From Candidatus Melainabacteria bacterium (GTDB taxonomy: Bacteria > Cyanobacteriota > Vampirovibrionia > LMEP-6097), in the NCBI GenBank assembly GCA_005110385.1, contig DUDT01000006.1, positions 9,334-73,333 on the forward strand: 64,000 bases of DNA, read 5' to 3'. The notes below the pieces were generated by a model, which saw only the letters and a program-made list of their open reading frames with translations, made no database searches and had not been told where the DNA came from. A program made the translations under genes and the position numbers. Numbering within the stretch: the first letter of the stretch is position 1; each line of letters starts with the position of its first letter. Shown piece after piece: positions 25,438 through 56,557 of the stretch.

Positions 25438-26607
25438 TCAAACGAGCTTTGTTATTATCTCGGTTAATTTCTCTAGTTCTGCTTCATCATTCATCCATGA
25501 AAGCGATATGCGGATAGCTCTTCTCGCTATATCCTCGTCTATCTGGCAAGCTCTAAGTACATAAGAACTTTCAATGATCTCAGCCGTATTTTTTTTATTA
25601 GAAGTACAGGCAGATCCAGAGCTTACGCAGATACCTTTTAGATCTAGCTGAAGCACTAGTTGCTCACTATTGAATTTTAAATCCATAAAAGATAGATTTA
25701 AATTACCACTTAATCTTTTTTCTAAATTTTTAGGGCCATTTAAAATGACAGATTTAAGGTTTTTTATTTTCAGCCATAGTTTTTTTTGTAGTTCTTTAAC
25801 TTTATTACGTTTTTCTGGATCTAAAGATATTTCAAGAGCTTTAGCGAATGCGATTATTCCATTTACATTTTCTGTTCCAGCTCTGAAACCTCTTTCCTGA
25901 CCACCACCTGTAATTAGGGCTTTATCTAAAATATGGTCTTGGAGTTTTTCAGCTATATAAATAAAGCCTAATCCTTTGGGTCCGTGTAGTTTATGGGCTG
26001 AAGCTGATATTAGGTCTAGCTTATAGTTTTTAACATCTATATCAAGCTTGCCAAGGCTTTGAACACAGTCACTATGGAAAGTAGCTTTATATTTTTCGCA
26101 TAAATCTCCGATGGCTTTTAAATTTTGTATAGTGCCAATCTCGCTATTAGCATGCATTATAGATACTAAAATCTTTTTAGGAGATCGCTGCAGAACTCCA
26201 TTTCCTGCGTTAGAATTTTTGGCGAGAATATTTTCTAATTCGTTTAAGGAAATATAACCTTCTTGATCAAGGTTTAACCAAATAATCTCTTGGCGAGAGG
26301 CTTTTGCTGCTTCAATTACGCTTGCATGCTCGCTAGGACTAGTAATGATTAGGTCATAATTACAAGCTTTAAAAACAGTATTATTCCCTTCTGTAGCACC
26401 ACTGAGGAAAAATATTTCATGAGGTTCAGCATTTATGCTGCGTGCAATGAAAGTGCGAGCTTCTTCTATTCTCTTTTTTGCAGATCTGCCGAGTTCATGA
26501 ATACTGCTGGGATTAGCGAAGCTGTTTTTAAAACTATCAATCAGCACTTCTATAACTTCTGTAGCAAGAGGAGTAGTCGCAGAATTATCGAAATAGATTT
26601 TATCCAT
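25438..26607 (-). CDS. Cysteine desulfurase (NifS/IscS class V aminotransferase)
   Basis: IYFDNSATTP, the PLP-lysine SAHKLHGPKG and the active-site loop SSGSACTS. I prefer the ATG at 26607 (MDKIYFDN) over 26628. Confidence 0.85.
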   Translation of the reverse strand: MDKIYFDNSATTPLATEVIEVLIDSFKNSFANPSSIHELGRSAKKRIEEARTFIARSINAEPHEIFFLSGATEGNNTVFKACNYDLIITSPSEHASVIEAAKASRQEIIWLNLDQEGYISLNELENILAKNSNAGNGVLQRSPKKILVSIMHANSEIGTIQNLKAIGDLCEKYKATFHSDCVQSLGKLDIDVKNYKLDLISASAHKLHGPKGLGFIYIAEKLQDHILDKALITGGGQERGFRAGTENVNGIIAFAKALEISLDPEKRNKVKELQKKLWLKIKNLKSVILNGPKNLEKRLSGNLNLSFMDLKFNSEQLVLQLDLKGICVSSGSACTSNKKNTAEIIESSYVLRACQIDEDIARRAIRISLSWMNDEAELEKLTEIITKLV

Positions 26608-41796: not shown

Positions 41797-42114
41797 ATGG
41801 CAACAGAAGTTAATGATGTTAATTTTGACACGGAGGTAATTAACTCAGATTTACCTGTACTTGTAGATTTTTGGGCTCCTTGGTGTGGTCCTTGTAGAGC
41901 TTTAGCTCCAGTTATAGATCAGCTAGCAGAGGAATACTCTGGTAAAGCTAAGATCGTAAAGCTTAATACTGATGATAATCCTAATATTGCTGTTCAGTTT
42001 AGAATTAATAGTATTCCGACTATGATTCTTTTTAAAGATAAAAAACCAGTAGATATGCTTGTAGGAGCATTATCTAAGGAAAAAATCCAAGAAGCTATTG
42101 ATAAGTTAATTTAA
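41797..42114 (+). CDS. trxA: Thioredoxin
   Basis: WAPWCGPCR active site and about 105 aa from ATG 41797. The stop TAA at 42112-42114 spans the IS junction. Confidence 0.95.
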   Translation: MATEVNDVNFDTEVINSDLPVLVDFWAPWCGPCRALAPVIDQLAEEYSGKAKIVKLNTDDNPNIAVQFRINSIPTMILFKDKKPVDMLVGALSKEKIQEAIDKLI

Positions 42115-43168
42115 ACTGCCCCCATTAATTTCTCCTACAAGTCAAGCCTAAATCACTGACAGCGAAGCATTTCCCTGATTTCAAATCAAATTCCTCATAC
42201 GAAGTGGAGCCTTATCTATGACTAGGTTATGAAAGTAGGCGTAGATATAGAGTATATGTTCTAACATATGAATTCTTTTAGTAGTACACCAAGTACGCCT
42301 ACTTAGCCTTTTAACATTATCCCTGATCATGGCACAGCTGTGATTTAGAGCGAAAAGAGGATCTCTACCAGAAGCTTTAAGTTCACCTTGACCCACTATA
42401 CAACCCCTTTTTCCCTTAAAAGCAAAATGTTCGTACTTTGAAAATAACTCCTTCAGTATATTTGGATAACAAGTAGCCTGATCTGAAGAAAATAAAATAT
42501 TCTTATCTCTATATCGCCTAATATACATAAGCATTTCTTTGATTTTTTTCTTTTTTTCTGATTCCCTAAATCCATATTTTTTAAAAGCAATCGCGGTTAA
42601 TTTCTTCTTAGGAGGTATTTTACCCACGCTTAAGGACAGTATTTTACGGTTCTTTGGATTAACTGCTAAAGGAATAGTTAATGGCTTGCATTTAGAATGC
42701 TCAAAGGTCTCCATTTCATCAAAAAATACTTCACTAAGATCTTCTGTTCTTCTAGTTTTCTCTAGATGTTCTCTAGCTTTAAAACCATATTTCTTTATCC
42801 TTACAGCTACTGTAGTTTGTTTAATGTTAAGTATCTGCGCAATTCCTCTTTGTGATACCCCTTTGCAGATTAATTTAAATACTGTTTGGTTCAGATAACG
42901 CTTTCTGAGGCGGTAGTCATAGCTGAAAGTCTGCTGTGAAAAGGATTTCCTGCATTTTTTACAGTAATATTTTTGAATTATTTTTCTATCTGATTTTCTC
43001 TCGAAAAATCCACGTCGAATCACACTTCCCCTAGCTTTACATATTAAACACTCCCCAAGAACATCTACTCTCTCTTTCATTCATAATATTTTCACCCCTT
43101 ACATAACTTGTTTTTTAGGGGTCATTTTTCCCCAGATTTATTTAAGTGAAGTTAATTGGGGCAGTTTT
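42113..43168 (-). mobile_element. IS1-family insertion sequence (single-ORF type), apparently intact
   Basis: Imperfect terminal IRs AAACTGCCCCCATTAA (42113-42128) and TTAATTGGGGCAGTTTT (43152-43168). Flanking direct repeat AGTTAATTT(AA) at 42104-42112(14) and 43169-43177(79). Confidence 0.75.
42181..43080 (-). CDS. IS1-family transposase (zinc finger + HTH + DDE)
   Basis: N-terminal CxxC...CxxC (CLICKARG...YYCKKCRKSF) and HTH RGIAQILNIKQTTV. FFDEMETFEHSK...LAVNPKNRKILSLSVG resembles the IS1 DEQW...D..tr.i....G pattern. Confidence 0.8.
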   Translation of the reverse strand: MKERVDVLGECLICKARGSVIRRGFFERKSDRKIIQKYYCKKCRKSFSQQTFSYDYRLRKRYLNQTVFKLICKGVSQRGIAQILNIKQTTVAVRIKKYGFKAREHLEKTRRTEDLSEVFFDEMETFEHSKCKPLTIPLAVNPKNRKILSLSVGKIPPKKKLTAIAFKKYGFRESEKKKKIKEMLMYIRRYRDKNILFSSDQATCYPNILKELFSKYEHFAFKGKRGCIVGQGELKASGRDPLFALNHSCAMIRDNVKRLSRRTWCTTKRIHMLEHILYIYAYFHNLVIDKAPLRMRNLI

Positions 43169-43175
43169 AGTTAAT

Positions 43176-43586
43176 TTAAGAGTTGAGTTTAGCTAATATT
43201 TTTTCTGAGCTTGATTTCATTTCATCTACTTTTTCTAATAGCTTATATTTAGAGTCATAGATTTTATTAATTAGTTTACGTTTTTCATAATCAAAATTAT
43301 CAAAAAGATCATCTTTTTTTCGACCTAATTGATATTTTTGCGTACTGAGAAACTTTCTAAACTCCTGTTTAAGAAAATATTTCAGCATATTCTGATTTTC
43401 TTTGATGCTATAGAATTTCCAGTATTGCCTTATTACGAAGATATAATAATCTAATTTACTTTTCATGTTAGTGAAACTTGATCTATTTTGTTGTAGGCAA
43501 GAAAATAGGGTGGAACTTGTAAGAGTCAATGCGGAATTAATAAAGCGAGTGATTATGTCAAGAAAGCTAGTGGGGCTTGTTTGCAT
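43176..43586 (-). CDS. Hypothetical protein
   Basis: 136-aa ORF, K/Y/F-rich, with no motif. Coding status is uncertain. Confidence 0.4.
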   Translation of the reverse strand: MQTSPTSFLDIITRFINSALTLTSSTLFSCLQQNRSSFTNMKSKLDYYIFVIRQYWKFYSIKENQNMLKYFLKQEFRKFLSTQKYQLGRKKDDLFDNFDYEKRKLINKIYDSKYKLLEKVDEMKSSSEKILAKLNS

Positions 43587-45822: not shown

Positions 45823-46809
45823 ATGTCTATTATGGCTCGCTCAGTGATTGATAAAACAGCTGAGAAACAAGAAATATTTAATCAGATTCGTGCTTTAGCG
45901 AAAGAAAAAAATGCGGTTATACTGACGCATATTTATCAGAGATTAGAGGTGCAGAGGGTTGCAGATTTCGTTGGTGATTCTTTAATGCTATCTAAGAAGG
46001 CAGAAGCTACTGATGCTGATTTAATTGCTTTTTGTGGTGTGCATTTTATGGCAGAGACGGCTAAATTGCTTAATCCTAAAAAGAAAGTTCTGCTACCAGA
46101 TATCCAATCTGGCTGCCCTATGGCAGATATGATTAATGTTGATGATTTGAGAGCCTTTAAAAAAGAGCATGCTGGGGCTTCAGTGGTTTGTTATATAAAT
46201 AGCTCTGCTGCGGTAAAAGCAGAATCTGATATTTGCTGCACTAGCACTAATGCAGTCGACATAGTAGAGTCTTTGAGTGAAAAAGAAGTTATCTTTGTGC
46301 CAGATAAAGGTCTGGGTGAGTGGGTTCAGCTTAATCTACCAGATAAAAAACTACATATCTATGATGGTTTCTGTCCTACGCACTGGCAGATAACTCCACT
46401 TGAAGTAGATAAGCAGAGGGAAAAATTACCTAATGCGATTATAGTTGCTCACCCTGAGTGTAATCCAGAGGTTTGGCGTAAGGCTGATTTCGTAGGCAGT
46501 ACTTCTGCGATTTATAATTTCGTGAAAGATCATACGGCAACTCAGTTCGTTATACTTTCTGAGCAAGGCTTAGTAGCTAGAATGCAAGCTGATATTCCAG
46601 AAAAAGAGATTACCACAGTGTTTCCACTACCTCTTTGCCCTAATATGAAATATCATAGCTTAGAGAACCTTTATCTAGGTATTAAAGAAGAGTTTACTGA
46701 GATTAAAATCCCCGATGAGATTATAGAGCCAGCTAGACTTACGATTGAGCGTATGCTTGAGATTAGTAATAGGAAGAAGACTTGGTCTGGGCCTGTCAAT
46801 CAGGGCTAA
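45823..46809 (+). CDS. nadA: Quinolinate synthase
   Basis: AHYYQ-like THIYQ, VADFVGDSL, FCGVHFMAETAK, the PD..GCPMA cysteine, and AHPEC. I prefer the start at ATG 45823. Confidence 0.9.
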   Translation: MSIMARSVIDKTAEKQEIFNQIRALAKEKNAVILTHIYQRLEVQRVADFVGDSLMLSKKAEATDADLIAFCGVHFMAETAKLLNPKKKVLLPDIQSGCPMADMINVDDLRAFKKEHAGASVVCYINSSAAVKAESDICCTSTNAVDIVESLSEKEVIFVPDKGLGEWVQLNLPDKKLHIYDGFCPTHWQITPLEVDKQREKLPNAIIVAHPECNPEVWRKADFVGSTSAIYNFVKDHTATQFVILSEQGLVARMQADIPEKEITTVFPLPLCPNMKYHSLENLYLGIKEEFTEIKIPDEIIEPARLTIERMLEISNRKKTWSGPVNQG

Positions 46810-46831
46810 AGGACGCGTAGCGAAACTCTAA

Positions 46832-46973
46832 TTTCTGCGTTTTCGTCGTCCTCATGATCCTCATGTAAGCTTGATAAATCAAGCTTGTATTTCCGCTTGC
46901 TCGCATATGACATTAATGTCGCATGCTCGGCATCGCTGGAAATTACTCGCAGTACACTGCGGTCATTCGTCCT
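46832..46973 (+). repeat. Degenerate/nested copy (A) of the GC-rich repeat family
   Basis: The left arm 46832-46867 and right arm 46953-46973 match the internal arms of copies B and C. The terminal IRs are absent, and an 85-bp insert of nested palindromes replaces the 7-nt centre. Confidence 0.65.
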
Positions 46974-47421
46974 TCGGAGTAGTTCTAGAGAAAATAATAT
47001 CTAGTATGTAAAAAAATAAACCAATATTCAGGAAAACATCTGCTAGATTGAATATGGCAAAATTAATAAAAATAGGGTTTATAAAATCAGTTACGAATCC
47101 AAAGATGTATCTGTCTAATAAATTAGAAAACGCGCCCGCGAAGATAAATATGAGAAATACAGGTGGCTGTGCTTCTTTGAGAAAATAGAATAGAATCCCA
47201 AGATTAATAATGCTGATAAGTATAGTAAGAATGAGTGGGTGGCTCGCTAAGAAACTAAAAGCCATGCCAGTATTTTCTGCATATTTAAACTCTAAAAACG
47301 ATGGAATGAAATCAGTTCTAATAGCGGGTCTTAAATATTCACGAGCCCAAAACTTGGAAAGCTGGTCTATTAGAACAAGAAATAAAATTAATATACTGGA
47401 TATTTTTTTAGATAAAAACAC
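46963..47421 (-). CDS. lspA: Lipoprotein signal peptidase (signal peptidase II)
   Basis: DQLSKFWA, NTGMAFSF, NLLDR and FNLAD motifs. The last codons and the stop lie inside repeat copy A. Confidence 0.85.
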   Translation of the reverse strand: MFLSKKISSILILFLVLIDQLSKFWAREYLRPAIRTDFIPSFLEFKYAENTGMAFSFLASHPLILTILISIINLGILFYFLKEAQPPVFLIFIFAGAFSNLLDRYIFGFVTDFINPIFINFAIFNLADVFLNIGLFFYILDIIFSRTTPKDE

Positions 47422-47437
47422 TATTTAGATAATTATT

Positions 47438-48136
47438 CTATTTTTTGGCTTTTTTATCTTTAATTTTTTTCTCAGCTTCTTTGGCTTTCGCTTTTGTTTG
47501 CATGCTTTTAGCTCTGGTTCTCATTTCAGCTAAGCTCTGTAATGCTCCCACTGCACCTTTTCCTTGGAGTTTCGCTGAAGCAAAAGCTGAGCAGGCTTGG
47601 TGTAGTAGCGATGCTGTAATCATAGAGTATTTAGTACTGCGTCTCTGTATAGTTCCCCAGATAATTAGTCCAGTAAATAAAACTCCTAAGATTAGGTTCC
47701 TGAGAACCGCGGGATTAGTAAAATTAAAAGGTCCAGAAAAGAAGCTCATAATGATTACAGTAAGCAGCCCCGCAAGCCCTAATAAATAAGGAATCATTTT
47801 AATTATGGATGTTTTCTGTAAATTCTGGGCACGTTTCATGGCTATCTCACTCATAGATAGTGAGACTTGAGAGCTGATTTTATCTCTATCCATACGTTTA
47901 ATAGACTCATAAATTATTTTGTCGCTAGGATCTTCACTGGTAACCTGCTTTAAAAATCGCTGAATCGCCTTTATAGTGCCGAACTCTTTGGCATTTTCTT
48001 TAACCTGTCTTAGAATGCCATTCGCAAAATTATCAATTAGCTGATAAGCTTTATCTTCAGATGATTTATCTATGCTTAAATCTGGTCTCTGAAAGCTTGT
48101 TTTGTTCTTTTGCATTGCGCTGTTTCTCATAATCAA
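47438..48136 (-). CDS. Hypothetical membrane protein with a Lys-rich tail
   Basis: Two clear hydrophobic segments and a C-terminal KAKAKEAEKKIKDKKAKK. Confidence 0.55.
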   Translation of the reverse strand: MIMRNSAMQKNKTSFQRPDLSIDKSSEDKAYQLIDNFANGILRQVKENAKEFGTIKAIQRFLKQVTSEDPSDKIIYESIKRMDRDKISSQVSLSMSEIAMKRAQNLQKTSIIKMIPYLLGLAGLLTVIIMSFFSGPFNFTNPAVLRNLILGVLFTGLIIWGTIQRRSTKYSMITASLLHQACSAFASAKLQGKGAVGALQSLAEMRTRAKSMQTKAKAKEAEKKIKDKKAKK

Positions 48137-48169
48137 TTAAAATTTATCTACTAAGCTTAGCAAATCCAC

Positions 48170-49402
48170 ATGACAGATTTAACTGTAAGAGATAGATATT
48201 TACTGATTATTTTAGCGATTTTTCTATCTGTTCCCCCAATTTTTTCAATTTTTTTAACGTGCATTGATATTTATTACACTGTGATAGCTTTGCCCTGTAT
48301 AGCTTTAATTGCTTTATTTGGCTTTAGCAGGGCAGTGAAAAGAAGCTTATTTTTTACTATTAAGGAGAGTTTATGTAATAAATTTACTCTTTATATTTTA
48401 CTGATTTTCTTTACGCCACTTATATGGGGAGCATTTCAGGGTGATTATTTTTATTCTCGGCATGAAAATGCTCATTGGATAAATGCTTCAACTGTATTTA
48501 TAGTGCCTCTGTTTTATTTCGCTTCGCAGTTATTTCTAAGTTTTTTAGAGTTACTCGGCTTAAAGAGAGTTTGGCAGTTGTCTATTTTTGCAGCTTTATT
48601 TAGTTTAAGTTTTTCTATAGATTGGTTTTACTCACTTTATAAAAGTTTGATCTTTGCAGATTATCGTTGGAATGGCTCTGCTGGTAATGCTAATATTTGG
48701 GCTTGTGAATCCACTATTGTGCTTTTAGTTATAGTGGCAGCTTTCGTTGAGTATAGAAAAGAGAAATCACTGAAACTCTCTCCTTATGTAATAATTCCTG
48801 GCGTAATTATTATTTTTCTTTGTTTGATTGGTATCGCTAAAGCTTTTTCTCTAGCTACTTTAATTGGTATATTAGCTTGTCTTTTTTGCATCGGTGCTTA
48901 TAAACTCTTACGGGAGAGGGTTTGGCTAATTATTGGTGCAATTCTGTTATTGCTTGGCATAGCGTTAATTTTTTATATTTTATTTGGGGATCTGAGCTTT
49001 AAAGCTAAGCAGTTATTTTGGGGAAAGAAATTTTTTCCACGTATTAAGCTATGGCGTAATATTGATGATTTGGTTTTAGATTTTAAATCTCTGGAAATCT
49101 TCTTCGGGATTGGCTTTGAGAAATATACATCTTGGCTCGCTAGTTTTAAAAAGCCAGAATATAATCATATTCATAATGCCTTTTATCATTATTTTATTCA
49201 GTATGGTTTCTTAGGTTTCCTCTGCTCAACCATGCTTTATTTTAAATTATTTTTTGCAAATAGTTTTTATCTGAAAATACTAGCGGTTTTTCTTATAGCT
49301 ATAAGCTTTTTTGACGTCAGTGTATTCTTTGAGGAAGTTCAGATACTATTATTTCTTTTGCTGCCAGTGTTTGAAAGGTTTGAATCTGAAAAAATAGATT
49401 GA
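48170..49402 (+). CDS. O-antigen ligase-like (Wzy_C family) polytopic membrane protein
   Basis: About 10 TM segments and the HNAFYHYFIQYGFLGF motif, typical of O-antigen ligase/polymerase-like proteins. Confidence 0.6.
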   Translation: MTDLTVRDRYLLIILAIFLSVPPIFSIFLTCIDIYYTVIALPCIALIALFGFSRAVKRSLFFTIKESLCNKFTLYILLIFFTPLIWGAFQGDYFYSRHENAHWINASTVFIVPLFYFASQLFLSFLELLGLKRVWQLSIFAALFSLSFSIDWFYSLYKSLIFADYRWNGSAGNANIWACESTIVLLVIVAAFVEYRKEKSLKLSPYVIIPGVIIIFLCLIGIAKAFSLATLIGILACLFCIGAYKLLRERVWLIIGAILLLLGIALIFYILFGDLSFKAKQLFWGKKFFPRIKLWRNIDDLVLDFKSLEIFFGIGFEKYTSWLASFKKPEYNHIHNAFYHYFIQYGFLGFLCSTMLYFKLFFANSFYLKILAVFLIAISFFDVSVFFEEVQILLFLLLPVFERFESEKID

Positions 49403-49449
49403 TGCATTCAGTCTAGCAGACATTGGGGAGCTGATTATGAATGCATCAA
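49399..49449 (-). terminator. 12-bp perfect hairpin in a convergent intergenic region
   Basis: TTGATGCATTCA (49399-49410) pairs with TGAATGCATCAA (49438-49449). On the minus strand a T-run follows. Confidence 0.4.
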
Positions 49450-49480
49450 AATTGATGGAAGCGTGACTGTTGTCTTCCAA

Positions 49481-49828
49481 TTATAGTTGTATTAATTCAT
49501 AAAGGCGCCTATGTTTTTTAGCTTGTTTTTTTATTGCAGTTAGGAAAGGACTCGGTCCACGACGCTCTTCTATTTTTTCCACTGCGTAAAGTACACTAGC
49601 GAAATTAAAAGCTGATAATTCTATTTCATCAATGCGCCCAGACTTTAATTTTTCTTCTGAGTAAATTTCTTTTCGATCTAGTAAAACTTTACTGATCTCA
49701 TCTTTGATCTGAGTGACATCTTCTTCTGAAAATTTTATATTTGCTCTATTCAGGGCTCTCTTTACATCAACCTCTGCGATTTTTTTACGAAAAAAATTAT
49801 CAAGAAATAGCTTCTTTCTATCCTGCAT
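49481..49828 (-). CDS. Hypothetical protein
   Basis: 115-aa ORF with a GGGGAGG SD; no motif. Confidence 0.5.
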   Translation of the reverse strand: MQDRKKLFLDNFFRKKIAEVDVKRALNRANIKFSEEDVTQIKDEISKVLLDRKEIYSEEKLKSGRIDEIELSAFNFASVLYAVEKIEERRGPSPFLTAIKKQAKKHRRLYELIQL

Positions 49829-49853
49829 TTAAGCCTCCCCTCGGATTGTGTCT

Positions 49854-49972
49854 AGACCGCTGCACAACTCCATTTTCTGCGTTTTCGTCGTCCTCATGAT
49901 CCTCATGTACCTTGAGTACACTGCGGTCATTCGTCCTCCTCAGCCTTGAAACTGCACGTTGTGCAGCGGTCT
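49854..49972 (+). repeat. GC-rich 119-bp MITE-like element, copy B
   Basis: Terminal inverted repeats AGACCGCTGCACAAC (49854-49868) and GTTGTGCAGCGGTCT (49958-49972). By manual alignment, 111/119 identical to the reverse complement of copy C. Confidence 0.85.
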
Positions 49973-50109
49973 CTGTAAATCTTTGCTTATTTAATAAGAA
50001 GAATATTTCGTTGTTTTCTTTTGAAATACTTCTATGGATATAAGGTGAGGGAGGGGGTTATTTTGATAGGAAAAGGTGGCGAAATGAAAGTATCCTATCA
50101 TCTGCTGCA

Positions 50110-52281
50110 TTATAGTACGACTTTTGTGCTATTACTGAGCTGATTGCTAGCCATAGATCCTATGGTTTCAGGGTATCTAAATGTGTCTCCATTTGGGTGA
50201 AAATCTGTACCGAAGGTCCCATTTGGTCTAAATATTAAAGCTCCACCGTACGGGGATAGAGCTGCTCTTATCATTCCATCATTTCTAATATTTTGAGGTA
50301 CAAATCCCTCTCTCCTGCTGAGAGCTGCTTGAAATTTACGCTTTGAGGATGCAAAGTATTCCTGGGCTCTAAGTGTTTCTGGGCGATTAGCCGTTGGGAG
50401 GGTGAAAGCTGGCCTAGTATTCCTATTATTTTCATCAAATAATAACGTGACCCCAGAAGGATTAACTTGTGCAGTCAGCTTTTCTTGCCCTTCTTTATTT
50501 GGTCCAAATAAACTTATAATTCCATTATTAATCTCTAGCTTAAATGTTCCATTATCGCTCCTTAGACTAAAAGTCTCATAGGGTTTTCCTTTGGGAGCAG
50601 CTCCTGCTGTGTGGACGACGACGCCTCCCGGCATTTTCACTTCTTTTCCAGGAACTTCTTGATTTGGTAAAAATTCTAATTTAGTTGGATTTTCTGTATT
50701 AACTGTTATGGTTTGAGTGACCAATTGACTCTCTGGGATATCAGCGTCATTGTGATTCTTTCCGAAGCCTGCTTGCATAATATCTTGGTATTTTTCTTGT
50801 AAGTCTTTATCTGACAGCATTTCTGGACCAAGGTGCTTATTTCTTTCTACTGCTGCTGTGTATTCTTTGTGGCTGGGGTACTTACTTGGGTTTAGAATTT
50901 CTGATATTTCAGCTTGAGCTAAGTTTTCTCTGATTACGCTACTCATTGCTTCTTTTAATTTTATAGATAGTGCACTGTGGTTTAGGTGCTGAGTTGATGC
51001 TGTAAATATTTTTTCATATTTTTCATACGCTTCTGATTCTTCTATGTTAAGTCCCTCACTGAGCTTGGCGAAAAAATGGTCAATAAGCTGCTCTTTATTA
51101 AGTGTAGTTATGCCGCTCTCTATAATTCTATTAAATATTGGATCAAGCTTTGCGAGTATTTCTTTTTGTCCTGCAGCTTCTGGATGTATTTTTGCTATTT
51201 GTCTGTTTAAAGAGGCAGAAAGGCCGTCATCATCTGTTTCCTCAAGCGGGGGGCGAGAAAGTCCAGCTGTAAAATTACGAAAAGCTTTGGCAAGATCAAG
51301 AGAAGATTTGTTATCAGGATCTGATGTATTGCTTGTGTCAAGGTTCATCATGGCTTCTCGGATTTCTTCTGCCGATCTAGCTCCTTTAGGTATTTCCCAC
51401 TTAACTGTTATTTTAGGGAGGTCTCCATATTTTATGGTTAGTTCTGAGATTATATGTTCACCACTTGGCGAATTAGGATTAGGACTAAATATTCTTTTTA
51501 GTCTTAGATCTTTTGCTTCCATTTCGTCATAGACTGGCTTATAAATCATTTTTTGCTGAATTAAAGCTACTGCCTCTGCTGCATTTTGAGGGAGAGTATC
51601 TAAGAATTTTTGGTCAACTATAGCGCCTTCCCTGATCCATTCAAGTTTATTTTCTGGAGAGAGGTTATCTAAGCTCATAATTAACTGTAATGGGCTTGAA
51701 TTTAACCTAGTGATTATTTGAGAAGCTTTTACGGATTGAGCATGGTCAGTATTTTTTTCAAAAAGTCCTAATTTATCTTTACGTATAACATCTTGCTCTA
51801 GTGCGATTATGAGGGCACTGCTCAGTCCATAGTGTTTAGGATCGCCCATTATTGAAGTAAATTTTTGCTGACTTGTCATAGTGTCATCGATTAGTAAAGC
51901 CATTAACTCTTTACTTTTAAATTTAATTTCGGGGACTTCATTCTGGAAACTTAATTTTTGCGACCCAAAGGTACTAGACTGCCTACTCTCAGCAGGAAGA
52001 TGCATTGTTATCGCTTTTGCAGTACCCGCAGCATTACTAGTATCTTCTTCTGTAATTGGCAGTTTGGAGACAGCCATAAATCCCTGTTCATCGCCTTCTT
52101 TTGGATGAACTTCGTCCAAAGGTCTTAATGGAGTTACTATTGACGACATCCACCCTATTAGACTTCTAGGGTCTATTTTTTCGTGTTCTGCTAACCTCCC
52201 TGTTTGCACTGGAGATAATATTGTAGAGCCAGGCTCTACGGTATGTGGATAAAGGAATAAGTTTCGACTCGTAATTCCCAT
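50110..52281 (-). CDS. Large orphan protein (723 aa)
   Basis: Long uninterrupted ORF, visibly more GC-rich than its neighbours. No signal peptide, TM segment or known motif. Confidence 0.7.
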   Translation of the reverse strand: MGITSRNLFLYPHTVEPGSTILSPVQTGRLAEHEKIDPRSLIGWMSSIVTPLRPLDEVHPKEGDEQGFMAVSKLPITEEDTSNAAGTAKAITMHLPAESRQSSTFGSQKLSFQNEVPEIKFKSKELMALLIDDTMTSQQKFTSIMGDPKHYGLSSALIIALEQDVIRKDKLGLFEKNTDHAQSVKASQIITRLNSSPLQLIMSLDNLSPENKLEWIREGAIVDQKFLDTLPQNAAEAVALIQQKMIYKPVYDEMEAKDLRLKRIFSPNPNSPSGEHIISELTIKYGDLPKITVKWEIPKGARSAEEIREAMMNLDTSNTSDPDNKSSLDLAKAFRNFTAGLSRPPLEETDDDGLSASLNRQIAKIHPEAAGQKEILAKLDPIFNRIIESGITTLNKEQLIDHFFAKLSEGLNIEESEAYEKYEKIFTASTQHLNHSALSIKLKEAMSSVIRENLAQAEISEILNPSKYPSHKEYTAAVERNKHLGPEMLSDKDLQEKYQDIMQAGFGKNHNDADIPESQLVTQTITVNTENPTKLEFLPNQEVPGKEVKMPGGVVVHTAGAAPKGKPYETFSLRSDNGTFKLEINNGIISLFGPNKEGQEKLTAQVNPSGVTLLFDENNRNTRPAFTLPTANRPETLRAQEYFASSKRKFQAALSRREGFVPQNIRNDGMIRAALSPYGGALIFRPNGTFGTDFHPNGDTFRYPETIGSMASNQLSNSTKVVL

Positions 52282-52365
52282 AAATCATTAATTTAGTGTA
52301 TATCTTTATAATTAGTCAAGCTTTTCTTTAATCTTTATTTTTCGTCCTGCTATTATTAAATTAAG

Positions 52366-53091
52366 ATGCATTTCGTTATTCGAATATTACTGCTTTTGAC
52401 TTTATGTGTAAGTTACGTCTCCGCCCATGAGCCACATTTAGAGCCGAGGCTGATAGAAGTTCAGGGTGCTGCTAAAAAGAAAGTCGCGCCAGATATGGCG
52501 ATCTGTAGTTTTTCTGTTATTAATGAAGCGAAGACGGCTGAAGAATCACGTTCTAAAAATGAGCTGAATGCTAAAAATGTTTTAAATGCTATTCGTAAAA
52601 TGGGCATCGCTGAAGCTGAGATTAATTTAGAGAGATTTAATATAGAGGAAGATCAGGAGTATAGCCAGAAAGAGCAAAAATATATATTTAAAGGCTATAA
52701 GGCGGTAAGAGCCTTTTCTGTAGAGGTTTTTAATTTAGATTTACTGCCTAAAGTAATAGCGACTGTCACTCAAAATGGTACTAATAGCTTAAATGGAGTG
52801 AGTTATACTTTGAAAAACCCTGAGCAGTACAGGCTTCCACTATTAAAGGAGGCGGTGTTAAATGCTAAAGCTAAAGCCGAAGCTATGTTAATACCAGTAA
52901 CTGCTAAATTAGGTCTAGTGCAGAAGCTGAGTGAAAGTTCTTCTTTTGATTATCCCTCACCAAGAGCGATGCCGATGATGCTTATGGCTAAAGCTGCTAA
53001 TGCTGAGAGTGATAGCGGTAGCGTAGAAGCTTATTCTGCTGGAACTGTAGAAATTACAGTTAATGTGCAGGCGAGTTTTAATATTCTTTAG
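52366..53091 (+). CDS. SIMPL/DUF541 family periplasmic protein
   Basis: Has a signal peptide. The pattern IEVQGAAKKKVAPDMA...V...A is typical of DUF541 (26-kDa periplasmic immunogenic protein family). Confidence 0.8.
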   Translation: MHFVIRILLLLTLCVSYVSAHEPHLEPRLIEVQGAAKKKVAPDMAICSFSVINEAKTAEESRSKNELNAKNVLNAIRKMGIAEAEINLERFNIEEDQEYSQKEQKYIFKGYKAVRAFSVEVFNLDLLPKVIATVTQNGTNSLNGVSYTLKNPEQYRLPLLKEAVLNAKAKAEAMLIPVTAKLGLVQKLSESSSFDYPSPRAMPMMLMAKAANAESDSGSVEAYSAGTVEITVNVQASFNIL

Positions 53092-53102
53092 GCTGTTTAT
53101 AG

Positions 53103-53221
53103 AGACCGCTGCACAATGCGCAGTTTCAAGGCTGAGGAGGACGAATGACCGCAGTGTATCAAGCATACATGAGGATCATGAGGACGACGAAAACGCAGAA
53201 AATGGAGTTGTGCAGCGGTCT
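53103..53221 (-). repeat. GC-rich 119-bp MITE-like element, copy C (inverted relative to B)
   Basis: AGACCGCTGCACAA...TTGTGCAGCGGTCT. It fills the convergent gap between the SIMPL stop (53091) and the DUF2126 stop (53225). Confidence 0.85.
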
Positions 53222-53224
53222 CTC

Positions 53225-56200
53225 TTATGACCTTCTCAAATCGAGTGTACATGGAAAGTCTGGATTAATATTAGCTGCTTTAAAAGCTAAATTCCCGGGG
53301 CTGTGCCCCATAGCCTGAAAACGTGATAAGCACCTGCCTTCAGCTTCATTTTCATTTACTGGTAGGCTTTCATAGCTTCTGCCACCGGGGTGCATAACAT
53401 GGTAAGTACAGCCACCTAGAGAACGATTTAATGTTTTATCTATGACATCGAATTTCAGTGGACTGTGTGCGGGGATAGTCGGGTGGAGGCTAGAGTAAGG
53501 TGCCCAAGCTTTAAAGCGCAGACCAGCCACGTAAACACCTTTTTTACTAGTGCTTTGCAGAGGTAGTTCTGTGCCATTGCAAGTTATGCAATGTCTAGAA
53601 TCTATATGACCAGTGACTTTTACTTCTAGTCTTTCTAAGGAAGAATCTACTGATCTGCTAACGCCAGCAGCCCCCAGTTCTTCACCTAATACTGGCCACG
53701 GCTCTAATGCCATGCGTAACTCAAGCTTTATGCTGCCAAGCTGTACTTCACCATATCTTGGGAAGCGAAAATCAAAGAAAGGCTCAAACCAAGAGCTTTC
53801 AAATTTAGCTGCTTTTTTCGGCATGCCAGAATTGAGGAAATTTAATACATCATTAAAATCTTCCCAAAGATAATGAGGCAGCATAAATCTATCATGTAGC
53901 TGTGTTCCCCAAGGAATAAGCTTGCCATTATATGGTGTCTTATAAAATTTAGCGATGCAAGCTCTAATTAATAATGCTTGAACTAAATTCATCTGTGGAT
54001 GAGCTGTCATTTCAAAACCACGCATCTCAAGAAGACCTAATCTGCCAGTGTTACTGTCTGGGCTGTAAAGTTTATCTATGCAGAATTCCGCTCGGTGAGT
54101 GTTACCTGTAAGATCGACAAGCAGATTTCTGAATAGTCTGTCCACTAGCCATGGCGGTATATCTTCACCATCTGGAATCTGCTCAAAGGCTATCTCTAAT
54201 TCATAAAGAGAATCATGCCTAGCTTCATCTATCCTTGGGGACTGACTAGTAGGTCCTATAAACATAGATGAGAAAAGATATGAAAGTGATGGATGATTCT
54301 GCCAGAAAGCGATCATGCTTTTTAATAAATCGGGGCGTTTTAAAAATGGGCTAGCTTCAGGGCTAGAAGCACCTAGTACTATGTGGTTTCCTCCGCCAGT
54401 ACCTACTCTGCGCCCATCAATTAAAAACTTTTCGGTGGTTAAGCGTGTTTTGTAAGCTTCTTCGTATATGGTGAAAGTAATATCTTTTAATTCTTCCCAA
54501 TTATGAGCAGGTTGTATATTTACTTCTATAACACCGGGGTCTGGTGTTACGCTTAGATGCGTGATTCTGAGATCCTTTGGTGGAGTGTAACCTTCAAGGA
54601 CGACTGGAATGTTTAATTCTTCAGTCGTTAACTCAATAGCGACTATAATCTCTAGGAAGTTCTCTATAAAGTTTAACGGTGGTAAAAACAGATGTAATAT
54701 ACCACCCCTGATTTCAGCACAAATCGCACTACGAACTAGACCGCAGGGGTCGTCTTTAAAATCTTTGTCGTGAATATTTTTCTTCGGATTTTTTAAGATA
54801 TGCTCGCGTAGCTGACTATAAGAAGCGAGTGGGGCTTTCTGCTCATAAGGACTAGGTTTCAGTAAAAATTCACCATGAGGGGCTACTACAGTGGGAAGGC
54901 TTTGAAGAGGTAAGCGTAAACCTATAGGTGAATCCCCTATTCCTAATGTTAGCCTTTGATTTCTAAACTCCCATCTATTACTAATCCATCTCTGCCTTCT
55001 TGGTGAAAAATGTAATGGTAGAACATAGCCCACTTCTTTATTAAGATTCTTATCTAATAGATGCTGCAAACGCTTACGCTCAGCAGCTTCATATGTATCA
55101 GCTTCTATGATCTCTTTCTCTATAGGTATTTTATTTTCTTGCCAGAGATAATATATAGTATCTTCAAAAGCTGGAATTATGTAAGATGATGGTATGGAAA
55201 GCTTTTTAGATAATTTTTCTAAAAAGATTTTACTGTTTTCTAAGGAAGTGCTGCTTTTATCTTTTTTAGATTTACTTTTAATTTCGGCAGTCGATATTTT
55301 AATTAAACCAGTGTTAGCCCAGATGGGTTCAGCATCCTTGCGCCAGAAACAGTGCATAGCCCAGCGAGGTAATATTTCACCTGGATACCATTTCCCTTGA
55401 CTGACCTGTATTAAAGCATTAGGCTGAAATCTTTCTTTTAAAGATAGCAGAAGCTTTTCCCCAAGCTGTTTCTTTTCATCGCTGAGAGCTGTGAAATTCC
55501 ATTCAGAACCAGAGCGATTATCAAGAGAGACGAAAGTCGGTTCCCCGCCCATAGTGAGCTCAATTTTAGATTTATTGAGATCTTTATCTATAGCTTTTCC
55601 AAGCAGGTCAATGCTGTTCCATTCATGGTCTGAATATGGCTTGGTGACTCGTCTGTCTTCATGAATACGAGTTATAGTCATCTCGTGGTGTAAAGTGCTA
55701 CCACAAGCTTCAAGTAAGCCGCTGATGGGAGCTGCACTAGAAGGGTTCGGTGTGCAGCACAAAGGTATATGACCTTCACCTGTAAAGAGACCAGATGTAG
55801 GATCTAGCCCTATCCAGCCAGCACCGGGTAAATAGACTTCAGTCCAAGCATGTAAATCAGTAAAATCATGGTCTGTACCAGATGGTCCATCAAGAGATTT
55901 AATATCAGCTTTTAATTGGATGAGATAACCAGAGGCAAAGCGAGTTGCTAAGCCGAGATGGCGCATGGCTTGGCAAAGTAACCATGCAGAGTCTCTGCAT
56001 GAGCCACTTTTAAGCTTGAGTGTCTCTTCGCAGCTCTGAATACCTTCTTCTAAGCGAATTACATATTTTAATGACTTGTTTAATTCACTATTTATGGCTA
56101 CCAAGAAATCTATAGTATTTAGTTTATTTTCTTTATTGAGCTGGGTTGATTCCGTGAAATCCTTTATCCAAGCCTTAAGTAAGCTGCCATTTTCCTTAAT

Positions 56201-56557
56201 TTCTAAATATGGCGATAGCTCTTCTCTTAATTCAGCACTATAGGAGAAAGGAAATTTCTCGGCGTAATCTTCTAGGAAAAAATCAAAAGGGTTAAAAACT
56301 CTAAGTTCTGTAATTAGGTCAACTTCAACAGAAAATTCTTTAGTCTCTTCCGGAAAGACTAAGCGAGCTAAGTAATTTCCAAAAGGGTCTTGTTGCCAGT
56401 TTATGAAATGTTTTTCAGGTAAGACTTTTAATGAATAGGACTGGATGTGTGATCTGCAATGGGGTGCTGGGCGCAATCTGATCGTCTGCATGCCAAGCTT
56501 AATCGGTCTATCATAGCTGTAGCGTGTAATATGGTGTAGTGCTGTTAATATACCCAT
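53225..56557 (-). CDS. Giant transglutaminase-family protein (Bact_transglu_N + transglutaminase core + DUF2126)
   Basis: 1110 aa. N-terminus HHITRYSYDRPI...IRLRP. Catalytic Cys in SGSCRDSAWLLCQAMRHLG; His/Asp in DLHAWTEVYLPGAGWIGLDPTSG. The long C-terminal region is typical of DUF2126. Confidence 0.85.
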   Translation of the reverse strand: MGILTALHHITRYSYDRPIKLGMQTIRLRPAPHCRSHIQSYSLKVLPEKHFINWQQDPFGNYLARLVFPEETKEFSVEVDLITELRVFNPFDFFLEDYAEKFPFSYSAELREELSPYLEIKENGSLLKAWIKDFTESTQLNKENKLNTIDFLVAINSELNKSLKYVIRLEEGIQSCEETLKLKSGSCRDSAWLLCQAMRHLGLATRFASGYLIQLKADIKSLDGPSGTDHDFTDLHAWTEVYLPGAGWIGLDPTSGLFTGEGHIPLCCTPNPSSAAPISGLLEACGSTLHHEMTITRIHEDRRVTKPYSDHEWNSIDLLGKAIDKDLNKSKIELTMGGEPTFVSLDNRSGSEWNFTALSDEKKQLGEKLLLSLKERFQPNALIQVSQGKWYPGEILPRWAMHCFWRKDAEPIWANTGLIKISTAEIKSKSKKDKSSTSLENSKIFLEKLSKKLSIPSSYIIPAFEDTIYYLWQENKIPIEKEIIEADTYEAAERKRLQHLLDKNLNKEVGYVLPLHFSPRRQRWISNRWEFRNQRLTLGIGDSPIGLRLPLQSLPTVVAPHGEFLLKPSPYEQKAPLASYSQLREHILKNPKKNIHDKDFKDDPCGLVRSAICAEIRGGILHLFLPPLNFIENFLEIIVAIELTTEELNIPVVLEGYTPPKDLRITHLSVTPDPGVIEVNIQPAHNWEELKDITFTIYEEAYKTRLTTEKFLIDGRRVGTGGGNHIVLGASSPEASPFLKRPDLLKSMIAFWQNHPSLSYLFSSMFIGPTSQSPRIDEARHDSLYELEIAFEQIPDGEDIPPWLVDRLFRNLLVDLTGNTHRAEFCIDKLYSPDSNTGRLGLLEMRGFEMTAHPQMNLVQALLIRACIAKFYKTPYNGKLIPWGTQLHDRFMLPHYLWEDFNDVLNFLNSGMPKKAAKFESSWFEPFFDFRFPRYGEVQLGSIKLELRMALEPWPVLGEELGAAGVSRSVDSSLERLEVKVTGHIDSRHCITCNGTELPLQSTSKKGVYVAGLRFKAWAPYSSLHPTIPAHSPLKFDVIDKTLNRSLGGCTYHVMHPGGRSYESLPVNENEAEGRCLSRFQAMGHSPGNLAFKAANINPDFPCTLDLRRS

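What the first reader, a model, noticed from the sequence alone, without database searches (positions are those of the whole stretch)
49854..53221. Two inverted copies of a GC-rich 119-bp TIR element bracket a 3.1-kb two-gene cargo
Copy B (49854-49972) and copy C (53103-53221) are reverse complements of each other, 111/119 identical by manual alignment. Each ends in 15-bp terminal inverted repeats (AGACCGCTGCACAAC / GTTGTGCAGCGGTCT). Most of the differences fall in a 7-nt central block. The elements are far more GC-rich than the surrounding AT-rich DNA. They enclose exactly two genes, the 723-aa orphan and a SIMPL/DUF541 protein. This geometry would allow inversion of the segment by recombination between the copies, or mobilisation as a composite unit by a trans-acting transposase. 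No matching transposase is in the window, and the IS1-like element has unrelated ends.
Basis: seen in the sequence. Interest (0 to 1): 0.6.

Follow-up and report, generated by a model that had tools for sequence, protein, structure and literature searches.

The report
Two independent mini-transposon copies, not cargo
The two inverted 119-base repeats are real, but they are two separate insertions of a very abundant miniature transposon of this uncultured relative of cyanobacteria, and the two genes between them are not carried or flipped by them.

Summary
B (49854-49972) and C (53103-53221) are inverted copies, 111/119 identical, about 52% GC in 36-38% GC DNA, and they enclose exactly two genes.

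The composite or invertible reading fails. The repeat is one family with 57 full and about 140 partial copies in this 1.9-Mb Vampirovibrionia genome, and it occurs in all six sister species. Random placement of 57 copies predicts about 5 neighbour pairs within 3.3 kb; 7 are seen.

Gene order nadA-lspA-p232-p410-p115-[slot]-SIMPL-C-p1110 is conserved across the genus:
- B is present only in G000 and G003; G001, G004 and G006 have clean empty sites.
- C is old: it is in four species and is a deleted remnant in a fifth.
- The 723-aa orphan is present or absent independently of B.
- The SIMPL gene keeps the same place and orientation everywhere.

The element is a 121-bp MITE: a 16-bp covarying terminal stem, a conserved core and a 5-bp target duplication (121+5 = 42 codons). 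One frame is open, and 81 of 199 hits lie in that frame inside long ORFs, as Rickettsia palindromic elements do.

A likely mobiliser exists outside the window. It is an IS5/IS1182-like insertion sequence whose 16-bp ends match the MITE stems at 14/16 and which also makes a 5-bp duplication. Its only copy in this genome is decayed.

The parts
49854..49972 (+). Copy B of the MITE, with the pyrimidine-rich strand on + and the single open frame on -. It lies 25 nt upstream of the ATG of the 115-aa gene and 137 nt downstream of the stop of the 723-aa gene.
   Evidence: B is 100% identical to the copy at the same site in G003. G001, G004 and G006 have the empty site ggattgtTCTGCTGtaaatc there. No clear target duplication is visible at this copy.
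53103..53221 (-). Copy C of the MITE, in the opposite orientation. It lies between convergent genes, 11 nt after the SIMPL stop and 3 nt before the stop codon of the 1110-aa gene.
   Evidence: Orthologous copies are present in G001, G003 and G006 (91.7-97.5% identity). G004 has an internally deleted chimeric remnant at the same site.
46811..46985 (+). Copy A, an old disrupted copy placed directly after the nadA stop. An ~84-nt second palindromic element sits in place of the central loop. The right arm of A supplies the last codons and the stop of lspA.
   Evidence: G006 has a full copy at this site, while G001, G003 and G004 have an internal deletion.
50110..52281 (-). A 723-aa orphan gene that occupies a variable slot. 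It is not linked to the repeats.
   Evidence: No Pfam or NCBIfam hit. It is present in G005 (76% aa identity) and G006 (67%) and absent in G001, G003 and G004. G001 carries an unrelated 910-aa orphan in the same slot.
52366..53091 (+). SIMPL/DUF541 gene, a conserved syntenic core gene.
   Evidence: Pfam PF04402, E = 6.5e-41. It is 92-95% identical at the amino-acid level, and in the same place and orientation, in G001, G003, G004, G005 and G006.
49481..49828 (-). 115-aa gene on the left flank, conserved across the genus.
   Evidence: 91-93% aa identity in G001, G003, G004 and G006.
53225..56557 (-). 1110-aa gene on the right flank, conserved across the genus.
   Evidence: About 95% aa identity in G001, G004 and G006.
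42104..43179 (-). IS1-family element, which is not the mobiliser of this MITE.
   Evidence: NCBIfam IS1 transposase, E = 2.3e-15. Its ends are AAACTGCCCC(C/A)ATTAA and are unrelated to the MITE stems.

Best explanation
B and C are two independent, differently aged insertions of a non-autonomous 121-bp miniature inverted-repeat element. They happen to lie 3.1 kb apart in a genome that is saturated with this family.

The element has four parts: a 16-bp terminal stem (G + 15 nt ... 15 nt + C), a highly conserved, strand-asymmetric core that is not self-complementary, a short inner hairpin GTAC-N5-GTAC, and a 5-bp AT-rich target-site duplication. Because 121 + 5 = 126 = 42 codons and one frame carries no stop, copies survive inside genes as in-frame 42-aa insertions (...SRLRRTNDRSVLxVHEDHEDDENAEIGV...). 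Old copies are trimmed to 'solo left ends'.

Mobilisation is inferred to be in trans, by a DDE transposase of an IS5/IS1182-like insertion sequence of the same genus. That IS has near-identical 16-bp ends and the same 5-bp duplication. Its only copy in this genome is a frameshifted relic, so the family is probably immobile here now.

The two genes between B and C are not cargo. SIMPL is a fixed core gene. The 723-aa orphan sits in a separate hypervariable slot between p115 and SIMPL.
For: **Shown: family and spread.**
- The family has 199 nhmmer hits in G000: 57 full, 112 left-end and 23 right-end copies.
- It is present in all six sister species and weakly in two other genera.

**Shown: the locus across genomes.**
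- Presence or absence of B, C and p723 at the syntenic locus is independent, and SIMPL orientation is invariant.
- The B-C spacing is what chance gives.

**Shown: 5-bp duplication and 121-nt boundaries.**
- These come from flanks in G000 (TTCCT, ATTAG, AAAAG, CTAAG, TAATT, TTCAA).
- They also come from filled-versus-empty comparisons with G001, G004 and G006 (TTGAT, TTCAT, ATCTT, CTTAT, TTTTA).

**Shown: coding behaviour.**
- Only one of six frames is open.
- 19 of 57 full copies, 53 left-end hits (of the 115 that script classed as left) and 9 right-end hits (of 24) lie in that frame, with at least 40 codons on both sides. Examples are an AcrB-family pump and a glycerol-3-phosphate dehydrogenase.

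**Shown: stem and trimmed copies.**
- Stem positions are 76-98% paired (15 of 16 at 85% or more), with 3-5 pair types at most positions, against 44-77% at variable positions when partners are shuffled. Pairing stops abruptly after 16 bp.
- Solo ends are deletion derivatives of full copies.

**Shown: candidate mobiliser.**
- It is an IS with DUF772 + DDE_Tnp_1 domains.
- Homology among three copies starts exactly at GGCACTGTTGC.
- The G006 filled site, compared with the G000 empty site, gives a 5-bp duplication ATAAT and ends G-GCACTGTTGCCAATC...GATTGGCAACAGTCC-C. That is 14/16 identical to the MITE stem GGCACTGTTGCCGAAC.

**Inferred.** That this transposase actually moves the MITE.
Against: - Copy B itself shows no clean 5-bp duplication (at most TCT).
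- Beyond the 16-nt ends there is no significant similarity between the IS and the MITE (z < 1). The MITE is therefore not a simple internal-deletion derivative of this IS.
- The stems of the B/C subfamily (G-AGACCGCTGCACAAC) match the IS ends at only about 9-11 of 16 positions.
- Stems vary between subfamilies while the core stays almost invariant. That is the reverse of what is expected if a transposase reads the ends by sequence.
- No intact transposase gene could be assembled, because the G006 copies lie at contig breaks.
- Low-frequency inversion between B and C could not be tested.
Confidence: 0.87

Rival explanations
1. Composite transposon: B and C act as the two ends of one mobile unit that carries the 723-aa gene and SIMPL as cargo.
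For: The copies are inverted, have intact outer ends and enclose exactly two genes. A DDE transposase could in principle use the two outermost ends.
Against: SIMPL sits at the same place and in the same orientation in every genome, with or without B, C or p723. G003 has B and C but no p723. G006 has p723 but no B. G004 has none of these. No duplication flanks the unit. B's closest relatives are other copies (98% to C21:46085), not C. The only candidate transposase in G000 is decayed.
Confidence: 0.02
2. Invertible segment: homologous recombination between the inverted copies flips 49973-53102, either as a programmed switch or as population heterogeneity.
For: The copies share 56 nt and about 40 nt of perfect identity in inverted orientation, which is enough for RecA-type recombination.
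Against: No invertase or recombinase gene lies nearby. G003, which also has both copies, and all the other relatives show the same orientation. Public runs are held only as unitigs that break inside the repeat, so they give no evidence either way. Two junction pattern scans of the metagenome contigs found nothing.
Confidence: 0.07
3. Exapted RNA hairpin: copy C (and perhaps B) is kept because its 16-bp GC-rich stem serves as a 3'-end protector or terminator for the convergent SIMPL and 1110-aa transcripts. This reading does not exclude the main explanation.
For: C lies 3 nt and 11 nt from the two stop codons. It is retained in four species at 91.7-97.5% identity. Predicted folds are strong (z = -4 to -7). 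Across 10 orthologous sites the elements are 95.8% identical, against 89.9% for their flanks.
Against: There is no U-tract, and the terminator scan does not call it. G004 has deleted most of the copy. The high conservation is equally well explained by gene conversion among about 200 copies: the same loops occur with different stems, and loops are replaced all-or-none. No RNA data are available.
Confidence: 0.12

Closest known systems
Rickettsia palindromic elements (RPEs; Ogata et al. 2000, as summarised in PMC10969869)
   Same: Both are short palindromic repeats in high copy number. Both are frequently inserted in frame in unrelated housekeeping genes, where they encode a conserved hydrophilic peptide. 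Both also occur in intergenic DNA.
   Different: This family is in a different phylum (Vampirovibrionia/Melainabacteria rather than Alphaproteobacteria). No sequence relationship to RPEs was tested or is expected. It has a clear 5-bp target duplication and a candidate parent IS. It is 121 bp long against about 150 bp, and many copies are trimmed 'solo left ends'.
Prokaryotic MITEs mobilised by IS5-superfamily transposases (general class; review PMC10969869)
   Same: It is small and non-autonomous, with terminal inverted repeats, a target-site duplication of the same length as the putative parent IS, and many copies.
   Different: The terminal repeats are the least conserved part and covary, while the core is the most conserved part. 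No subterminal homology to the IS was found. One reading frame is kept open.
Composite transposons (for example Tn5 or Tn10, two IS copies flanking cargo)
   Same: The geometry is the same: two inverted copies of a mobile element around genes.
   Different: The flanking copies encode no transposase. The unit is not inherited or lost as a block. There is no duplication around the unit, and the inner genes are syntenic core or slot genes.
REP/BIME elements with RAYT (Y1 HUH) transposases
   Same: Both are abundant GC-rich hairpin-forming repeats at gene ends, with structure conserved more than sequence.
   Different: No Y1_Tnp gene is present in any of the seven genomes of the genus. This element makes 5-bp duplications and is 121 bp long.

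Membership tests
Composite transposon | The block (end-cargo-end) is gained or lost as one unit, and relatives lack or carry it as a whole. | tested here: not met
   B, C and p723 vary independently among G000, G001, G003, G004, G005 and G006. SIMPL is always present in place.
Composite transposon | One target-site duplication flanks the whole unit. | tested here: not met
   The left flank of B is ...GTGTCT and the right flank of C is CTCTTATG. They share no direct repeat.
Composite transposon | A transposase that recognises the ends is available. | tested here: inconclusive
   None lies in the window. The only related IS in G000 (C12:103263-104414) is frameshifted. Copies in G006 lie at contig breaks.
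MITE | Small size (under about 300 bp) with no transposase gene. | tested here: met
   The element is 121 bp. Its only open frame encodes a 39-42 aa low-complexity peptide.
MITE | Terminal inverted repeats. | tested here: met
   The terminal stem is 16 bp, and 15 of its 16 positions are paired in at least 85% of 55 distinct copies.
MITE | Target-site duplication, and polymorphic filled and empty sites. | tested here: met
   5-bp duplications are seen at many copies, and clean empty sites exist in sister genomes. Copy B itself lacks a clear duplication.
MITE | A related autonomous IS with matching ends and the same duplication length. | tested here: met
   An IS5/IS1182-like IS has ends GGCACTGTTGCCAATC (14/16 to a MITE stem) and a 5-bp duplication ATAAT. 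Whether it actually mobilises the MITE was not tested.
Rickettsia palindromic elements | Frequent in-frame insertion in unrelated protein genes, encoding a conserved peptide. | tested here: met
   81 of 199 hits are embedded in the single open frame with at least 40 codons on each side. Examples lie in AcrB and G3P dehydrogenase genes.
Rickettsia palindromic elements | Sequence membership in RPE-1 to RPE-10. | not tested
   No RPE sequences were compared. The host phylum is different, so the claim is 'works like an RPE', not 'is an RPE'.
Site-specific invertible segment (Hin/Fim type) | A recombinase gene within or beside the segment, and short specific inverted crossover sites. | tested here: not met
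   The ORFs between and beside the repeats are an orphan, SIMPL, a 115-aa ORF and a transglutaminase-like 1110-aa protein. No recombinase domain was found.
REP/RAYT | A Y1 HUH transposase (RAYT) in the genome. | tested here: not met
   PF01797 is absent from all 7 genomes of the genus, while the control genomes were positive.
Known structured RNA (Rfam) | A match to a covariance model. | tested here: not met
   No hit with E <= 1 in 46000-54000 on either strand.

The most novel reading that the evidence does not exclude
The ends of this family may be defined by pairing rather than by sequence. Stems differ at up to half of their positions between subfamilies, yet nearly all stem positions stay at least 85% paired. 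One compensatory double change is seen at an orthologous site (G000 C16:27907 against G006). The 5-nt central loop is replaced all-or-none between orthologous copies, while the ~90-nt core stays almost invariant and is more conserved than the flanking genes. This could mean that the element is recognised or repaired as a folded single strand. Mismatch correction between the arms and frequent ectopic conversion would then maintain it, by a mechanism not described for DDE-mobilised MITEs. In that case new copies would be preferentially integrated next to existing left ends.
Probability: 0.15. Interest if true: 0.7.

Novelty: new member of a known kind. Interest (0 to 1): 0.35.

Why it matters
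For this locus the result is a correction. The apparent 'cargo' is a coincidence of a repeat-saturated genome, so neither the 723-aa orphan nor SIMPL should be annotated as transposon-borne or phase-variable.

For the family, the result gives a second, phylogenetically remote example of Rickettsia-style colonisation of protein genes by a palindromic element. No paper in the held library combines Melainabacteria or Vampirovibrionia with MITE or palindromic-element terms.

Unlike the Rickettsia elements, this family comes with a defined target duplication and a candidate parent IS. That makes the mechanism experimentally approachable. It also matters for annotating these MAGs, because the repeats break assemblies and add 42-aa loops to housekeeping proteins.

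Tried and rejected
- **Rfam.** Scan of 46-54 kb with E <= 1: no hits.
- **Reads for inversion.** All 21 DNA runs are held only as Logan unitigs, which end inside the repeat. The 3205-nt inner unitig is the same in four runs. The 'opposite strands' joints have at most 34 nt on the short side and come from other copies, so the data are uninformative.
- **RNA runs.** None are listed.
- **Junction patterns.** Two pattern scans of metagenome contigs, for the reference or the inverted junctions at B and at C, gave 0 hits.
- **NadA loci.** The loci from genome contigs (L039-L046) belong to other genera and are not syntenic, so they were not useful.
- **Parent search inside G000.** Pairing left and right ends found no IS-sized pair. 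Multi-copy ORFs turned out to be flagellins and similar proteins, not transposases.
- **Transposase families.** Tn3-family (PF01526) is absent from the genus, although it too makes 5-bp duplications. Y1/RAYT (PF01797) is absent. The rve-type IS copies have no element-like ends.
- **Subterminal homology.** None between the IS and the MITE beyond the 16-nt ends.
- **Terminator scan.** It does not call B or C.
- **Loop origin.** The idea that the 5-nt loop is a copy of the element's own target duplication was rejected by inspection.
- **The two slot orphans.** The 723-aa and the G001 910-aa orphans are unrelated.
Full report
**1. Observation**

Direct reading and the repeat finder confirm two inverted arms, 49854-49979 and 53096-53221, 93% complementary and 3116 nt apart. 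B against the reverse complement of C has 8 mismatches in 119. Six lie in the 7-nt centre and two in GCACG versus GCGCA. B ends in a perfect 15-nt inverted repeat; C has 14/15.

The copies are 51-52% GC in DNA of 36-38% GC. Exactly two ORFs lie between them: a 723-aa orphan on the minus strand and a SIMPL/DUF541 gene on the plus strand. A third, disrupted copy A sits after nadA at about 46811-46985. No Rfam family matches.

**2. The repeat is a genome-wide family**

A search of the window's own assembly gave 69 matches. That assembly is 1.91 Mb in 25 contigs at 36% GC, and its relatives carry record titles such as Vampirovibrionia, Melainabacteria and Caenarcaniphilales. A more sensitive blastn gave 171 hits and an nhmmer profile gave 199.

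- The 199 hits comprise 57 full-length copies, 112 'solo left ends' of 30-65 nt, 23 right-end pieces and 7 others.
- All six other species of the genus carry the family, and two further genera have diverged copies.
- Placing 57 copies at random gives on average 5.1 neighbouring pairs within 3.3 kb. Seven are seen, three of them tandem.

The B-C spacing therefore needs no special explanation.

**3. Test of the composite or invertible reading**

I fetched the syntenic locus from five sister genomes. The gene order nadA-lspA-p232-p410-p115-[slot]-SIMPL-(C)-p1110-p625 is conserved, with 88-98% amino-acid identity.

| Genome | B | Slot between p115 and SIMPL | C |
|---|---|---|---|
| G000 (this window) | present | p723 | present |
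| G003 | present, 119/119 identical | empty | present |
| G006 | absent | p723 (67% aa identity) | present |
| G001 | absent | unrelated 910-aa orphan | present |
| G004 | absent | empty | internally deleted chimeric remnant |
| G005 | locus not covered | p723 (76% aa identity), then SIMPL | absent; downstream not syntenic |

- Alignments give a clean empty site for B in G001, G004 and G006 (ggattgt-TCTGCTG-taaatc). They show C at an identical position in four species.
- SIMPL keeps its place and orientation everywhere.
- B, C and the orphan therefore have independent histories. The block is not a unit, and no fixed inversion exists, even in G003, which has both copies.
- B's nearest relative in G000 is the copy at C21:46085 (98%), not C.

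Rare inversion in the population could not be tested. All public DNA runs are held as unitigs that end inside the repeat, no RNA runs are listed, and two junction-pattern scans of metagenome contigs found nothing.

**4. Anatomy of the element**

Aligning the full copies shows the following.

- **Terminal stem.** It is 16 bp (a G, 15 nt ... 15 nt, a C). Positions are 76-98% paired (15 of 16 at 85% or more), with 3-5 different pair types at most positions, against 44-77% at variable positions when partners are shuffled. Pairing stops abruptly at the 17th position, and the flanks do not pair.
- **Stem subfamilies.** Distinct stems occur, for example AGACCGCTGCACAAC, GGACTGCTCGCAA(A/T)C, GCACTGTTGCCGAAC and GGCGTGTAGCGGAAC.
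- **Core.** The ~90-nt core is 90-99% conserved. It is pyrimidine-rich on one strand in both arms, so it is not self-complementary.
- **Centre.** The centre is GTAC-N5-GTAC, with 31 loop variants among 54 copies. The same loop is combined with different stems.
- **Target duplication.** Flanks carry 5-bp AT-rich direct repeats when the element is taken as 121 nt (TTCCT, ATTAG, AAAAG, CTAAG, TAATT, TTCAA).
- **Filled versus empty sites.** I compared 40 sites that are filled in G001, G004 or G006 with the G000 genome. Some are shared, some are clean empties, and some are sites where G000 keeps only a solo left end. The 5-bp duplications include TTGAT, TTCAT, ATCTT, CTTAT and TTTTA.
- **Tandem copies.** Arrays have a period of 126 nt. 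New full copies often lie directly beside an older solo left end.
- **Origin of solo ends.** They arise by internal deletion of full copies (site C in G004, site A in G001, G003 and G004, and C18:26173).

**5. Coding behaviour**

Only one of the six frames is open (TAAQRAVSRLRRTNDRSVLKVHEDHEDDENAENGVVQRS). Because 121 + 5 = 126, an insertion adds exactly 42 codons.

- In G000, 19 of 57 full copies lie in this frame with at least 40 open codons on each side. So do 53 hits classed as left-end (of 115 in that script) and 9 classed as right-end (of 24). Only one hit is embedded in another frame.
- Examples are an AcrB-family pump (element at residues 494-535) and a glycerol-3-phosphate dehydrogenase, where the element lies between the DAO and DAO_C domains.
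- This is the behaviour described for Rickettsia palindromic elements (PMC10969869).
- Copies B and C are intergenic members. Copy A supplies the C-terminus and stop of lspA.

Earlier notes of this scan on other windows of the same genome reached the same RPE-like reading. I derived it independently before reading them.

**6. The likely mobiliser**

- The IS1-family element in the window has unrelated ends.
- The genus has no Tn3-family transposase and no Y1/RAYT transposase.
- Among the DDE_Tnp_1 hits, one locus in G000 (C12:103263-104414, outside the window) is a ~1.15-kb IS. Its transposase has DUF772 and DDE_Tnp_1 domains and is split into 111-aa and 187-aa ORFs. It is bracketed by GGCACTGTTGCTTAAT and the inverted GAGACTGTTGCCAATC.
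- Two further copies in G006 begin their homology exactly at that first base.
- Joining the G006 left-end contig (C198) and right-end contig (C160) against the empty G000 site (C10, about 837) gives ...CAG ATAAT | G-GCACTGTTGCCAATC ... GATTGGCAACAGTCC-C | ATAAT AGGACTGG..., with one GTAAT at the empty site.
- The IS therefore has the same G...C-bounded 16-bp ends as the MITE (14/16 identical to stem GGCACTGTTGCCGAAC) and the same 5-bp duplication.
- Beyond the 16 nt there is no significant similarity. The MITE is a compatible-ends element rather than a simple deletion derivative, and mobilisation by this enzyme remains an inference.
- The G000 copy is decayed, so the family is probably inactive in this genome. 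In G006 the IS breaks contigs, which suggests several copies.

**7. What remains odd**

At ten orthologous sites the elements are 95.8% identical between species, against 89.9% for their 250-nt flanks. The differences are concentrated in the 5-nt loop, which is either identical or completely different.

One orthologous pair shows a compensatory double change in the stem: AGACCGCGGCAC/GTGCCGCGGTCT in G000 against ...GCTGCGC/GTGCAGC... in G006. Chimeric stems also exist (G004 site C, and C12:44522).

I attribute this to frequent ectopic gene conversion among about 200 copies, plus correction between the arms. That is not shown. The alternative, that the ends are read as a structure, is given as the novel case.

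**8. Verdict**

The mobile-element nature is confirmed and a candidate transposase has been found. The composite-cargo reading is refuted by comparative data, and the invertible-segment reading has no support, though rare inversion stays untested.

The locus is an ordinary consequence of a MITE-rich genome. The family itself is a new member of a known kind, and earlier reports of this scan have already noted it.

Noticed in passing
window 49829-52365 (slot between the 115-aa gene and SIMPL); L141:4521-7253: This intergenic slot holds different large orphan genes in different species: the 723-aa ORF in G000, G005 and G006 (67-76% aa identity while neighbouring genes are 92-98%), an unrelated 910-aa ORF in G001, and nothing in G003 and G004. 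Neither orphan has any Pfam or NCBIfam hit.
   Followed up: partly
window 46868-46952; also G000 C12:86550, C11:52626, C14:263512, C24:12249: A second palindromic element of about 84-90 nt (AAGCTTGATAAATCAAGCTTGTATTTC...CGCT(A/G)GAAATTAC) is inserted exactly at the central loop of at least five copies of the 121-bp element. The loop therefore seems to be a preferred target for another repeat family.
   Followed up: no
G000 C16:70805, C17:19321, C12:70583 and C16:27907 against their orthologues in G004 and G006: At orthologous copies the 5-nt loop GTAC-N5-GTAC is either identical or wholly different between species, while the remaining ~114 nt are nearly identical. The elements are also more conserved (95.8%) than the flanking, mostly coding, DNA (89.9%).
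   Followed up: partly
G000 C18:111040-111283, C14:105381-105621, C12:213148-213385, C13:1-206: Tandem arrays of the element have an exact 126-nt period and usually end in a truncated left end. Elsewhere, full copies lie directly 5' of an older solo left end, separated only by the 5-bp duplication. This suggests a target preference for the edge of existing copies.
   Followed up: partly
G000 C12:103263-104414 (outside the window): A decayed IS5/IS1182-like IS whose 16-bp ends resemble the MITE stems. The neighbouring 172-aa ORF starts inside the IS end and reads ...KQQC, the same peptide that the MITE stem encodes.
   Followed up: yes
G000 C22:257-290 and C11:31804-31873: Ends of the IS1-family element (AAACTGCCCCAATTAA...) abut truncated left ends of the 121-bp element at two sites. 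This indicates that the IS1 element inserted into or beside older MITE copies.
   Followed up: no
window 49829-49930, minus strand: On its purine-rich strand the element core carries GAGGAGG-N4-ATG. In copy B the resulting 33-codon ORF ends at a TAA that abuts the ATG of the 115-aa gene. The gene's own ribosome-binding site (GGGGAGG) is present in species without B, so this looks incidental.
   Followed up: partly
window 26182-26211: A further solo left end of the family, found as a blastn hit covering element positions 1-30 at 90% identity (C6:35515-35544).
   Followed up: no
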